Positions 34,704 through 36,048 of a stretch of 64,000 bases of DNA are shown here, piece after piece. Each line of letters begins with the position of its first letter. Position 1 is the stretch's first letter. The DNA is from an uncultured Sulfurovum sp. (GTDB lineage: Bacteria; Campylobacterota; Campylobacteria; Campylobacterales; Sulfurovaceae): assembly GCA_913055205.1 (NCBI GenBank), contig CAJXJN010000007.1, forward strand, positions 11,294 to 75,293. Reading direction: 5' to 3'. The notes beneath the pieces are model-generated. The model was not told the origin of the DNA. It ran no database searches and saw only the letters and a list, made by a program, of their open reading frames with translations. The position numbers were made by a program, and so were the translations under genes.

Positions 34704-34905
34704 GGGCTGTTATCTTCTTCCCATCGTCCGAGACAGTGAAAGCACTTATTATTTTGGAAGTTTCCACTTCCTTCCTCTCTTGTATACTGCAATATGATCT
34801 AATAATCATTTCCCGAATTTAAATCCACCGCTAGGTGGCATGTAATCAGATAGATTTCTTTTTCACCTAGCGGTGATTCTGTCTTATATTTAAGTCTAAA
34901 GCTAT

Positions 34906-34936
34906 GTAGGCATTCCCCACGTAAAGTATGGGAATG
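34906..34936. repeat. GTAG-tagged REP-like hairpin
   Basis: gtaggCATTCCCcacgtaaagtatGGGAATG. Confidence 0.45.
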
Positions 34937-34999
34937 AGATTGTAATTTTATGCTAGTTTAAGTTAATAAATGTAAGAATGTTGGAAAGGGTGCACAGAA

Positions 35000-35025
35000 G
35001 CATAGAAAGCGGTCACTTTCTATGC
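35000..35025. terminator. Perfect 10-bp hairpin, candidate bidirectional terminator of the small-peptide locus
   Basis: GCATAGAAAG-cggtca-CTTTCTATGC, 11 nt beyond the stop of the 35037-35147 ORF. Confidence 0.6.
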
Positions 35026-35036
35026 CTTGTGAGACA

Positions 35037-35147
35037 TTAGTCTTTGTCTGTGTTCTTTTGCTTCTTACAGTTTTTATAATCAAGCCACATAAATATCACT
35101 TTCAATACGCCAACTATAATAGCAAGTATGGGAATTACTTCCATCAT
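35037..35147 (-). CDS. 36-aa single-TM peptide, candidate Fst/Ldr-like type I toxin
   Basis: Hand translation MMEVIPILAIIVGVLKVIFMWLDYKNCKKQKNTDKD; GAGGGG SD; TATAAT at 35252-35257 (minus); downstream hairpin. Confidence 0.65.
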   Translation of the reverse strand: MMEVIPILAIIVGVLKVIFMWLDYKNCKKQKNTDKD

Positions 35148-35358
35148 ACACCCCTCATTTTAAATTTTTACCACCCACAATATAAATTCCTAGCCCGACC
35201 TAAGTAAACTAAAAAATAAGAACACCACCAATTTGCAAAGGGTGCGAGAGAATTATACATAGAGATTTTTACATGAGATAAAAATATGTCAAATTGTCAT
35301 ATTCTTCTTCCTTTAAGCTATTCCAAGTAAACTTATCTAAAATAGACAGGAATAAGCC

Positions 35359-36048
35359 ATGCTAAAAACACTTATCTCTTCATTACTCATTCTCTCAGCA
35401 ACCTATGCAGAAATCAAACCGACCATCCTACACGACCTAAGCGTAGAGATCAGCTACACTACCCCAGACGGCAAAGTCAAAAAAGTCACCATTGCCAGAG
35501 ATATGGACTTGCGTTGCAGGCAGATACCTTTTAATGCCAGAGAGTATTGGGAGGGGAATTATGCAAGCAGGGATGTGGCGGATTTTTGTAAAAAGACATT
35601 CATCACTACAGCAGGGAAGATCGCTCCTATGAAGATGCATGATAAAGTGGAGACTTACGGAGAGCTGGAAGTGTTGGATTTTCTGGAAGATATGCAGGAT
35701 GACAAAGAGCTTCTTTTTGTGGACAGCAGAAAACCGCAGTGGTATGAGAGTGTCAGTATTCCCAGTGCCATTAACATACCCTTTACCTATTTTACCGACT
35801 CTAAGAACATCAAATTCAAACAGGAAGCACTCATACGTTTTGGAGTGAAGAGTATAGAAGGCGGGTATGAGTTTACCCATGCCAAGACCATACTGTTCTT
35901 CTGTAACGGTGTATGGTGCAGACAGTCTCCCCAGATGATAGAAGCACTCCTTGCATTAGGATATCCGCCTCAAAAGATGAAATGGTACCGTGGGGGAATG
36001 CAGAGTTGGCTGAGTCTTGGGATGACTTCTACACGTTCTCCACAGTAA
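35359..36048 (+). CDS. Periplasmic rhodanese-like sulfurtransferase
   Basis: Signal peptide; VDSR, IPSAINIP, active-site loop FCNGVWCRQS, YRGGMQSW. Confidence 0.85.
   Translation: MLKTLISSLLILSATYAEIKPTILHDLSVEISYTTPDGKVKKVTIARDMDLRCRQIPFNAREYWEGNYASRDVADFCKKTFITTAGKIAPMKMHDKVETYGELEVLDFLEDMQDDKELLFVDSRKPQWYESVSIPSAINIPFTYFTDSKNIKFKQEALIRFGVKSIEGGYEFTHAKTILFFCNGVWCRQSPQMIEALLALGYPPQKMKWYRGGMQSWLSLGMTSTRSPQ

What the first reader, a model, noticed from the sequence alone, without database searches (positions are those of the whole stretch)
34950..35260. Unannotated Fst-like type I toxin-antitoxin locus between dnaE and the rhodanese gene
Seen: a minus-strand 36-aa ORF below the ORF-track cutoff (MMEVIPILAIIVGVLKVIFMWLDYKNCKKQKNTDKD) with one hydrophobic helix, a VG...WLD core and a charged tail. 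It has a TATAAT box about 105 nt upstream and SD region GAGGGGUGU. The 9-mer GCACCCUUU occurs at the very 5' end of the predicted mRNA (35237-45) and again beyond a perfect 10-bp hairpin (34985-93). It can pair across all nine SD-region bases (with G-U pairs). A convergent plus-strand RNA from about 34970 would read AAAGGGUGC, complementary to the mRNA leader, and end at the shared hairpin. Established: direct repeats read in opposite directions plus a bidirectional terminator is the layout of the Enterococcus par (Fst/RNA II) family; the type I system described in Campylobacterota is AapA/IsoA. Inference: a par-like type I TA in a lineage where I know of none. The antisense promoter is only a weak match (TGcTAGTTT near 34950).
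Basis: partly seen in the sequence, partly recalled or inferred. Interest (0 to 1): 0.8.

Follow-up and report, generated by a model that had tools for sequence, protein, structure and literature searches.

The report
New RNA-controlled toxin family in Sulfurovum
The gap between dnaE and a rhodanese gene holds an unannotated, self-contained module: a 35-aa membrane-peptide gene in a tightly folded mRNA, faced by a promoter for a small antisense RNA. It is one copy of a previously undescribed type I toxin-antitoxin-like family found only in vent Sulfurovum, and it appears wired to the cell's DNA-repair regulon.

Summary

They are not chance. The 360-bp block 34944-35302 is one of 3 copies in this genome. 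At least 47 copies occur in 25 of 116 Sulfurovum species genomes. None was found in 148 other Campylobacterales genomes.

Across 41 diverged copies the following are conserved:
- the toxin promoter;
- a 5'-terminal anti-SD and the SD;
- the ORF, with a coding signature (pN/pS 0.46);
- a Y-shaped 3' RNA domain with strong covariation;
- a second anti-SD;
- on the opposite strand, a TAnAAT -10 in 37/41 copies at a fixed distance.

Conservation stops abruptly beyond these elements. This supports a convergent antisense sRNA of about 78 nt (about 34985-35062). It overlaps the last 8 codons and the 3' UTR, and its 5' end also pairs with the mRNA 5' end.

The peptide is not an Fst/Ldr homolog by HMM.

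New finding: the toxin promoter carries the genus-wide palindrome that also precedes recA, recQ, recG, addB, radC, dprA, comM and a lexA-like gene.

No transcript or toxicity data exist.

The parts
35284..35302 (.). 19-bp palindrome ATATGTCAA-A-TTGTCATAT. It is the operator of a genus-wide DNA-repair/competence (SOS-like) regulon and lies 26 nt upstream of the toxin -10.
   Evidence: There are 20 sites in the own genome versus 0 for the reversed control. The genes downstream are RecA, RecQ, a RecG-like helicase, an AddB-like nuclease, RadC, DprA, ComM, a LexA-like S24 protein and Y1 transposases. Spacing to the -10 is fixed. The motif is present in 40/41 Sulfurovum genomes and in about 16 of 38 family copies at the same position.
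35252..35257 (-). Toxin mRNA promoter -10 (TATAAT). The predicted start is G35245.
   Evidence: TATAAT occurs in 26 of 39 copies, and a -10-like hexamer in 31 of 39, 4-9 nt before the GYACCC box.
35237..35245 (-). Anti-SD copy 1 (GCACCCUUU) at the predicted mRNA 5' end. It is complementary to the SD region and to the sRNA 5' end.
   Evidence: It is conserved as GUACCCUUU(U). 95.9% of cells pair with the SD versus 37-69% when slid. It is the only conserved sRNA:mRNA complementarity outside the overlap.
35218..35230 (-). 5'-UTR box (UGGUGGUGUUCUU; family consensus GGGGUAGUGUUCUU). It can pair with AAGAACAC at the ORF end and with anti-SD copy 2, forming a 5'-3' long-distance lock.
   Evidence: This is the RNAalifold consensus of 30 full-length mRNAs. 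98.2% of cells pair versus 44-73% when slid, with little covariation.
35148..35156 (-). Shine-Dalgarno region GAGGGGUGU.
   Evidence: It is conserved as AAAGGGUAC or AAAGGGUGC, 6 nt before the ATG. It forms a local 5-bp stem with codons 6-8 that has compensatory changes (9 double-change cells, 0/500 shuffles).
35037..35147 (-). Toxin ORF of 36 aa from the first ATG. The likely start is the second ATG at 35144 (35 aa). It encodes a single hydrophobic helix, an invariant MWL(D/N)Y motif and a Lys-rich tail.
   Evidence: Codon-position entropy is 0.81/0.37/0.98, and pN/pS is 0.455 in frame versus 0.72 and 1.55 off frame. AlphaFold2 predicts one helix over residues 4-35 with pLDDT 80. The 50%-identity representative library holds 18 hits.
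35000..35025 (.). Main hairpin (10-bp stem, 6-nt loop), shared by both transcripts.
   Evidence: It has many compensatory changes. For the whole 3' domain, 91% of cells pair versus 42-57% when slid, with 85 double-change cells and 0/500 shuffles.
34985..34993 (-). Anti-SD copy 2 (GCACCCUUU) beyond the hairpin. Its complement forms the 5' end of the sRNA.
   Evidence: It is conserved in all 41 copies. 98.5% of cells pair with the SD versus 15-68% when slid. The U-to-C change in this copy is matched in copy 1 and by G in the partner boxes.
34944..34979 (+). Antisense (antitoxin) promoter: AT-rich upstream blocks TTTTAT and TTTAAG, then an extended -10 TGTAAGAAT (34971-34979).
   Evidence: TAnAAT occurs in 37/41 copies, always exactly 6 nt before AAGGG, with a free third base (C17, A14, T3, G3) and a preceding TG. 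The window copy is one of 4 deviants (AAGAAT with TGn). Conservation stops abruptly just upstream of TTTTAT.
34984..35062 (+). Predicted antitoxin sRNA of about 78 nt. It has an SD-mimic 5' end (GAAAGGGUGC), a closing stem ACACAGA/UCUGUGU, two hairpins and a U-rich tail. It is antisense to the 3' UTR, the stop codon and the last 8 codons or so.
   Evidence: MFE is -28 kcal/mol with z = -3.3. Covariance model R1 scores 82 bits, E 4.8e-18, at 34983-35063.

Best explanation
Window 34944-35302 is one copy of a self-contained type I toxin-antitoxin-like module that was inserted between dnaE and a rhodanese gene.

Minus strand. A sigma-70-type promoter is preceded by the genus's DNA-repair/competence operator. 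It makes an mRNA of about 265 nt that starts with an anti-SD 9-mer. The mRNA encodes a 35-aa single-helix membrane peptide and ends in a Y-shaped 3' domain followed by the same 9-mer.

Plus strand. A conserved -10 just beyond that repeat makes an sRNA of about 78 nt. It is fully complementary to the 3' UTR and the last 8 codons or so. Its first 9-11 nt also match the first 9-11 nt of the mRNA.

Proposed mechanism. The mRNA is intrinsically poorly translated because its SD is sequestered. A local stem with codons 6-8 does this, and either anti-SD copy can also do it. A 5'-UTR box clamps the 3' domain. The sRNA, made in excess, forms a long duplex with the 3' end and clamps the 5' end. This marks the mRNA for RNase III decay. 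When the DNA-damage/competence regulon fires, toxin mRNA outruns the sRNA. The peptide then enters the inner membrane and arrests growth.

Shown: the sequence features, their conservation, the covariation of the 3' domain and the SD stem, coding selection, the insertion, and the operator's regulon.

Inferred: both transcripts and their ends, the direction of operator control, the role of RNase III, and toxicity.
For: - Copy number and distribution: 3 copies in this genome. There are 47 copies in 25/116 genomes of the genus, 1-5 per genome, and 0 in 148 other genomes of the order. The search for related loci names the hosts as Sulfurovum or Sulfurovaceae MAGs.
- Insertion: the block is an insertion, because in G006 and G011 dnaE and the rhodanese gene are about 40 nt apart.
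- The ORF is under coding selection and folds as one helix.
- The toxin promoter, 5' anti-SD, SD and 3' anti-SD are conserved.
- The SD/codon 6-8 stem covaries.
- The 3' domain covaries strongly.
- The AACACAGAC block is kept even where it is read in another frame (L010, L026), so it is constrained at the RNA level.
- The antisense -10 TAnAAT occurs in 37/41 copies at a fixed distance with a free third base, and conservation ends abruptly upstream of it.
- The alternative IsoA-type antisense promoter in the 5' UTR is not conserved across subgroups.
- RNase III is encoded in the genome.
- The operator is shared with recA, recQ, recG-like, addB-like, radC, dprA, comM and lexA-like genes.
- Some copies are inactivated by a small dispersed repeat, as is known for chromosomal hok and aapA loci (PMC5416894).
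Against: - There are no transcript, translation or toxicity data. The family is absent from the complete, single-contig Sulfurovum genomes searched, so no cultured strain is known to carry it.
- The window copy's antisense -10 is a deviant (AAGAAT with TGn).
- The 3' domain folds about equally well on both strands (antisense more stable in 26/40, p = 0.08). Structure alone therefore does not prove an antisense transcript.
- The three long-range SD and anti-SD pairings are conserved but show almost no covariation. They are also mutually exclusive, so which of them forms is unknown.
- The sRNA 5' end is an SD mimic. Binding the anti-SD copies could in principle free the SD rather than block it.
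- No U-tract follows the hairpin on the mRNA side.
- The peptide matches no known toxin family.
Confidence: 0.72

Rival explanations
1. It is a small membrane peptide of the DNA-damage/competence regulon with cis-antisense control, but not a toxin-antitoxin pair. The peptide would have a physiological role, for example modulating a membrane protein during repair or DNA uptake, and would not be toxic at native levels.
For: The operator is shared with repair and uptake genes. The copies in this genome lie among housekeeping genes, not mobile elements. Weak sub-threshold resemblance to PspB or Vpu-type single-pass helices is the only HMM signal.
Against: The family is multi-copy and patchy within one genus, and this copy is an insertion. 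Only about 16/38 copies carry the operator. The elaborate SD sequestration, the copies disrupted by insertions and the remnant copy in G137 that retains only the 3' (sRNA) part are typical of selfish type I modules.
Confidence: 0.13
2. No antisense sRNA is made here. The conserved 50 nt beyond the hairpin would be part of the toxin mRNA 3' end (a fold-back anti-SD plus tail), and expression would be controlled only by mRNA folding and processing, or by an antitoxin encoded elsewhere.
For: The strand-asymmetry test is weak. SD and anti-SD copy 2 are complementary in 98.5% of cells. The window copy's -10 is imperfect.
Against: TAnAAT occurs at a fixed distance in 37/41 copies, with only its third base free and periodic T-tracts upstream. 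This is the pattern of a promoter, not of an RNA helix. No sense-strand structure involves it. The Lys-codon tail reads as a U-rich terminator tail on the other strand directly after a covarying closing stem.
Confidence: 0.1
3. It is a non-coding dispersed repeat (REP- or MITE-like) whose ORF is fortuitous.
For: It is short, multi-copy and intergenic. REP-like palindromes lie next to it at 34825-34877 and 34911-34937.
Against: The codon-position pattern and pN/pS are frame-specific. SD-to-ATG spacing is conserved. Copies are only about 50% identical at protein level yet keep a hydrophobic helix and MWL(D/N)Y. Two conserved promoters are present.
Confidence: 0.03

Closest known systems
par (Fst/RNA II) of Enterococcus faecalis pAD1 and its Firmicutes homologs, including SprA1/SprA1as
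   Same: It shares convergent promoters at the two ends of a compact locus and a shared structured region between them. It has a DNA direct repeat read in opposite directions, so the sRNA 5' end pairs with the mRNA 5' region outside the overlap. The mRNA has intramolecular SD sequestration. The peptide has a TM helix, a conserved Trp and a charged tail (PMC7472228).
   Different: There is no sequence homology to Fst or Ldr and no PXXXG motif. There is one repeat, not two. The repeat is an anti-SD at the very 5' end, not the translation start, so the sRNA cannot mask the ribosome site through it. The sRNA overlaps the last codons. The host is Gram-negative, whereas T1TAdb lists all layouts with a 3'-side antisense RNA as Gram-positive (PMC8594479).
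TxpA/RatA and BsrG/SR4 of Bacillus subtilis
   Same: The antisense RNA is encoded on the 3' side and overlaps the 3' UTR and the end of the ORF. The long duplex would be a substrate for RNase III (layout per PMC8594479; RNase III gene present).
   Different: The peptides are unrelated. Here there is additional 5'-end complementarity and two anti-SD copies. The lineage is different.
AapA1/IsoA1 of Helicobacter pylori (the type I family described in Campylobacterota)
   Same: The phylum is the same. The toxin mRNA is built around SD sequestration by several alternative anti-SD sequences and a 5'-3' long-distance interaction. Chromosomal copies are multiple and some are inactivated (PMC5416894; PMC6733600).
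   Different: [quoted passage not shown] Here the 5'-UTR antisense promoter is not conserved and the antisense gene lies at the 3' end. The RNA matches no Rfam family.
SOS-controlled type I toxins of E. coli (tisB/istR-1, dinQ/agrB, symE/symR)
   Same: The toxin promoter carries the operator of the DNA-damage regulon. That these E. coli toxins are LexA-controlled rests on my own knowledge; I did not read PMC5066626 (seen only as an abstract snippet).
   Different: The operator sequence, the repressor and the peptides are different. In those systems the antisense RNA lies on the 5' side (PMC8594479).

Membership tests
Fst/RNA II (par) family | Toxin homologous to Fst (Pfam PF13955) or to the Ldr superfamily member (PF13940) | tested here: not met
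   Neither model hits the peptide or 12 relatives at E<=1-10. A six-frame search of the whole genome at E<=10 hits none of the three loci.
Fst/RNA II (par) family | Superfamily signature: a conserved Trp between the TM helix and a charged C-terminus, plus P/D/S/T-XXX-G in the helix (PMC7472228) | tested here: inconclusive
   Trp21 is invariant and a charged tail is present. No PXXXG motif is present: P/S6 and G13 are 7 residues apart, and G13 is replaced by Ser in half of the copies.
Fst/RNA II (par) family | Convergent promoters for the toxin mRNA and the antitoxin RNA | tested here: met
   Conserved -10 boxes lie on both strands at fixed positions. Transcripts themselves cannot be tested here.
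Fst/RNA II (par) family | Shared bidirectional intrinsic terminator at which both RNAs end | tested here: inconclusive
   A shared covarying hairpin is present. There is no U-tract on the mRNA side. On the sRNA side the best terminator is a closing stem with a U-run 35 nt further on.
Fst/RNA II (par) family | Two direct repeats (DRa, DRb) whose pairing with RNA II covers the toxin start codon and SD | tested here: not met
   A single 9-11-nt repeat is present. It lies at mRNA nt 1-11, about 90 nt before the SD. The sRNA 5' end has the same sequence as the SD, not its complement.
AapA/IsoA family | Antitoxin promoter inside the toxin 5' UTR, with the sRNA fully overlapped by the mRNA | tested here: not met
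   A TATAAAT on the opposite strand of the 5' UTR exists only in one subgroup and is lost in the others.
AapA/IsoA family | Toxin mRNA with a 5'-3' long-distance interaction and successive anti-SD elements | tested here: inconclusive
   Complementarity is kept in 96-98% of cells but there is almost no covariation.
[quoted passage not shown] | Small hydrophobic toxin ORF that is really coding | tested here: met
   There is frame-specific purifying selection, a single predicted helix and a conserved SD and start.
[quoted passage not shown] | Cis- or trans-encoded antisense RNA gene complementary to the toxin mRNA | tested here: met
   A conserved promoter plus a covarying sRNA-sized fold is present. 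This is evidence at sequence level only.
[quoted passage not shown] | Peptide is toxic and the RNA neutralises it | not testable with these tools
   This needs expression experiments.
Rfam antitoxin RNA families | Match to a curated covariance model | tested here: not met
   No relevant Rfam 15 family matches at E<=10 over 34600-35450.

The most novel reading that the evidence does not exclude
This is a new architecture of type I toxin-antitoxin control. The antitoxin sRNA begins with a copy of the toxin's own Shine-Dalgarno sequence. It therefore pairs with both anti-SD boxes, at the 5' and the 3' end of the mRNA, and clamps the two ends together while the duplex triggers decay. The toxin promoter is a member of a previously undescribed LexA-like DNA-damage/competence regulon (operator ATATGTCAA-N-TTGACATAT) in Sulfurovum. 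To my knowledge, the best-studied members of the phylum (Helicobacter, Campylobacter) lack a classical SOS system.
Probability: 0.3. Interest if true: 0.78.

Novelty: new variant of a known kind. Interest (0 to 1): 0.62.

Why it matters
Type I toxin-antitoxin families are hard to find and few are known; T1TAdb lists 24 (PMC8594479). In that census, every layout with the antisense RNA on the 3' side is from Gram-positive bacteria, and Campylobacterota contribute only the Aap/Iso families.

This locus adds several things:
- a family with no homolog among known toxins or Rfam RNAs;
- a par/TxpA-like convergent layout in a Gram-negative chemolithoautotroph from hydrothermal vents;
- an unusual SD-mimic sRNA 5' end;
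- 41 diverged natural variants that already map the RNA structure by covariation.

The attached operator also defines a candidate DNA-damage/competence regulon for the whole genus Sulfurovum, which could be tested directly.

A separate note from this scan (e1-5233823) reports another new type I family in Sulfurimonas. I did not check that note. If it holds, vent Campylobacterota may hold several undescribed families.

Tried and rejected
- Pfam and NCBIfam scans of the peptide and 12 relatives gave only sub-threshold single-pass-helix noise (Vpu, PspB, DUF5321). I rejected these as composition matches.
- An Rfam scan of the locus gave only chance hits (CPEB3, U6atac; E 2.8 and 9.8).
- I considered an IsoA-like antisense promoter inside the 5' UTR, because a TATAAAT lies on the plus strand at about 35184-35190. 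I rejected it because it is not conserved in the second subgroup or in L003.
- RNAduplex of the whole sRNA against the mRNA 5' part gave unrealistic duplexes full of loops and was uninformative. I replaced it with a scan for contiguous complementarity.
- The strand-asymmetry (G-U) test of the 3' domain was not decisive.
- I considered the TTGACA-16-AAAAAT promoter flagged by the consensus scan. Its TTGACA is half of the operator palindrome and the AAAAAT is not conserved in other copies, so I did not adopt it.
- The identical 25-nt insertion in three copies looked at first like an invertible promoter switch, because of an inverted copy upstream in L010. It turned out to be a dispersed repeat with about 13 copies in the own genome (exact or up to 2 mismatches); in L010 a copy also split the operator.
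- Literature searches for type I systems in Sulfurovum or Campylobacterota beyond Helicobacter and Campylobacter found nothing relevant. A search for a recalled Campylobacter system name found nothing relevant either.

Full report
**1. Observation**

- The 36-aa ORF lies at 35037-35147 on the minus strand.
- TATAAT lies at 35257-35252.
- The SD region GAGGGGTGT lies at 35156-35148.
- A perfect 10-bp hairpin spans 35025-35000.
- GCACCCTTT lies at 35245-35237 and 34993-34985. These are the only two copies in the window (expected 0.46).

No Pfam, NCBIfam or Rfam family explains the locus.

**2. It is a family**

A six-frame search found two more copies in the same genome and many in the genus. 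A scan of 185,579 species genomes returned 42 loci. Nearly all were titled Sulfurovum, Sulfurovaceae, Campylobacterota or Epsilonproteobacteria MAGs.

A profile search of 1.84 billion representatives found only 18 proteins. A covariance model of the 3' RNA domain (R1) gave the following hits:
- 3 in the own genome;
- 47 in 25 of 116 genomes of the genus, 1-5 per genome, and none in the single-contig complete genomes;
- none in 148 other genomes from 69 genera of the order.

In two relatives (G006, G011) the dnaE stop and the rhodanese start are about 40 nt apart. In the window the gap is 655 nt, so the module arrived by insertion. The other two own-genome copies also lie among housekeeping genes.

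**3. Anatomy from 41 diverged copies**

In toxin sense the order of elements is:
1. an optional 19-bp palindrome;
2. the -10 TATAAT;
3. 6-7 nt;
4. GUACCCUUUU (here GCACCCUUU);
5. the box GGGGUAGUGUUCUU;
6. a variable stem region;
7. the SD AAAGGGUAC;
8. 6 nt, then ATG;
9. the ORF ME..(hydrophobic)..MWL(D/N)Y(K/R).CKK.KNTDKD;
10. AACACAGAY and a small hairpin around the stop codon;
11. UCUCACAAGR;
12. an 8-11-bp hairpin;
13. YUUCUGUGUACCCUUUCC;
14. AWAAUUnUACA, then AT-rich sequence ending in AUAAA.

Beyond AUAAA, similarity stops dead.

The ORF is coding. Second codon positions are most conserved and third positions least (entropy 0.81/0.37/0.98). pN/pS is 0.455 in frame against 0.72 and 1.55 off frame. 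AlphaFold2 gives one helix over residues 4-35. Family spacing places the start at the second ATG (35144).

**4. The antisense gene**

Read on the plus strand, the block beyond the second repeat is TTTTAT..TTTAAAG..TGTAnAAT-6 nt-AAGGG.
- TAnAAT is present in 37 of 41 copies, always exactly 6 nt before AAGGG.
- Only its third base is free (C17, A14, T3, G3), and it is preceded by TG.
- This is the signature of a -10 box with the AT-rich upstream region that, from my own knowledge (not checked here), is usual in this phylum.
- The window copy is one of four deviants (TGTAAGAAT, 34971-34979), readable as TGn plus AAGAAT.

The RNA would start at about 34984-36 with GAAAGGGUGC. It folds into a Y shape: a closing stem (AGGG.ACACAGA with UCUGUGU.CUUU), the main hairpin and a small hairpin.
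- For the window copy, MFE is -28 kcal/mol with z = -3.3.
- Across 40 copies, 91% of cells pair versus 42-57% when partners are slid. There are 85 double-change cells, and 0 of 500 shuffles reach the score.

The U-rich tail after the closing stem is the reverse complement of the Lys codons of the peptide tail. In L010 and L026 the AACACAGAC block is conserved although it is read in another frame. This part is therefore constrained as RNA.

The fold is nearly strand-symmetric. The promoter, not the fold, is thus the main evidence for the antisense transcript.

**5. mRNA logic**

RNAalifold on 30 full-length mRNAs pairs the 5'-UTR box with AAGAACAC and with the 3' GUACCC box, giving a 13-bp long-distance lock. 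It also pairs the SD (GGUAC) with GUACU in codons 6-8.

| Pairing | Cells paired | Covariation support |
|---|---|---|
| SD with codons 6-8 | 98.7% | 9 double-change cells, 0/500 shuffles |
| 5' anti-SD with SD | 95.9% | too conserved to covary |
| SD with 3' anti-SD | 98.5% | too conserved to covary |
| 5'-UTR box with 3' domain | 98.2% | too conserved to covary |

In the window copy a U-to-C change appears in both anti-SD boxes, together with A-to-G in the partners.

Outside the overlap, the only conserved sRNA:mRNA complementarity is sRNA nt 1-11 with mRNA nt 1-11. It also shows that the sRNA 5' end is an SD mimic, not an anti-SD.

**6. Regulon link (new)**

The palindrome ATATGTCAA-N-TTGACATAT (window 35284-35302) has 20 sites in the genome against 0 for a reversed control, and nearly all are intergenic.

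It lies immediately upstream of RecA, RecQ, a RecG-like helicase, an AddB-like nuclease, RadC, DprA, ComM, a LexA-like S24/CI protein, three Y1 transposases, and two of the three toxin copies. It mostly sits 26 nt before the -10.

It occurs in 40 of 41 Sulfurovum genomes sampled. About 16 of 38 family copies carry it. The toxin is therefore probably co-regulated with DNA repair and uptake, as tisB, dinQ and symE are in E. coli (that comparison is from my own knowledge).

**7. Comparison**

The layout matches par in several respects: convergent promoters, a shared hairpin, and a repeat giving 5'-end complementarity (PMC7472228). It also matches TxpA/RatA-type loci, because the sRNA overlaps the ORF end.

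By T1TAdb's survey these 3'-side layouts are all Gram-positive (PMC8594479). The peptide shares only the loose Fst/Ldr signature (helix, Trp, charged tail) and fails the HMMs. The mRNA's multiple anti-SD design recalls AapA1 (PMC5416894, PMC6733600), but the antitoxin position differs.

I found no paper on such a system in Sulfurovum or other non-Helicobacter, non-Campylobacter Campylobacterota. An earlier scan note (e1-5233823) reports a different new type I family in Sulfurimonas. I did not test it.

**8. Verdict**

This is a real, conserved and previously undescribed family of type I toxin-antitoxin-like modules (confidence 0.72). It has a par/TxpA-like convergent layout in a Gram-negative lineage and a probable DNA-damage input. 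Transcripts, toxicity and the exact role of the SD-mimic 5' end remain to be shown.

Noticed in passing
window 35284-35302; own genome, 20 sites (e.g. C16:19189 before recA, C31:14482 before a lexA-like gene): The genus-wide palindrome (aaaa)ATATGTCAA-N-TTGACATAT(tttt) sits mostly 26 nt upstream of the -10. It precedes RecA, RecQ, RecG-like, AddB-like, RadC, DprA, ComM, a 217-aa S24/CI-like repressor and several Y1 (RAYT/IS200-like) transposase genes. This is a candidate SOS/competence regulon operator for Sulfurovum.
   Followed up: partly
L010:1310-1340, L026, L063 (ORF after codon 5); L010:1120-1150 (operator): A 25-nt element, GCCCGTAGGAAATGCCCTTGGGGTG, has about 13 copies (exact or up to 2 mismatches) dispersed in the own genome. 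It interrupts the toxin ORF at the same T^CA site in three loci, causing a frameshift and an early stop. In L010 a second copy splits the operator palindrome. It looks like a tiny mobile repeat that inactivates toxin copies.
   Followed up: partly
L116 (G137:C26:21100-22700), the same dnaE-rhodanese locus in a relative: The sRNA half of the module is kept at 95% identity. The toxin promoter, 5' UTR and first 13 codons are replaced by two unrelated ORFs of 231 and 151 aa. This is a remnant copy that retains only the 3' (sRNA) half.
   Followed up: partly
window 34825-34877 and 34911-34937: REP-like inverted repeats (CCACCGCTAGGTGG ... CACCTAGCGGTG, and CATTCCC-12 nt-GGGAATG) fill the rest of the inserted DNA between dnaE and the module. 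Similar GGTGGGAAT hairpins flank other copies.
   Followed up: no
L069:1740-3078, L058:1726-1878 and about 7 other loci: In about 9 copies the module lies directly upstream, in the same orientation, of a conserved gene. That gene starts MLRY(I/L)... and continues into what looks, by eye, like a YD-repeat (Rhs-type) protein (no domain search run). This may be a single orthologous insertion site or a real association with polymorphic-toxin loci.
   Followed up: partly
L003 (own genome C8:47478-47579): The third own-genome copy lacks the operator, the TATAAT and the 5' anti-SD, and starts 30 nt after the stop of a PP-loop (TilS-like) gene. Its SD and 3' anti-SD complementarity is extended to 10 bp (GCAAAGGGUG with UACCCUUUGC).
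   Followed up: no
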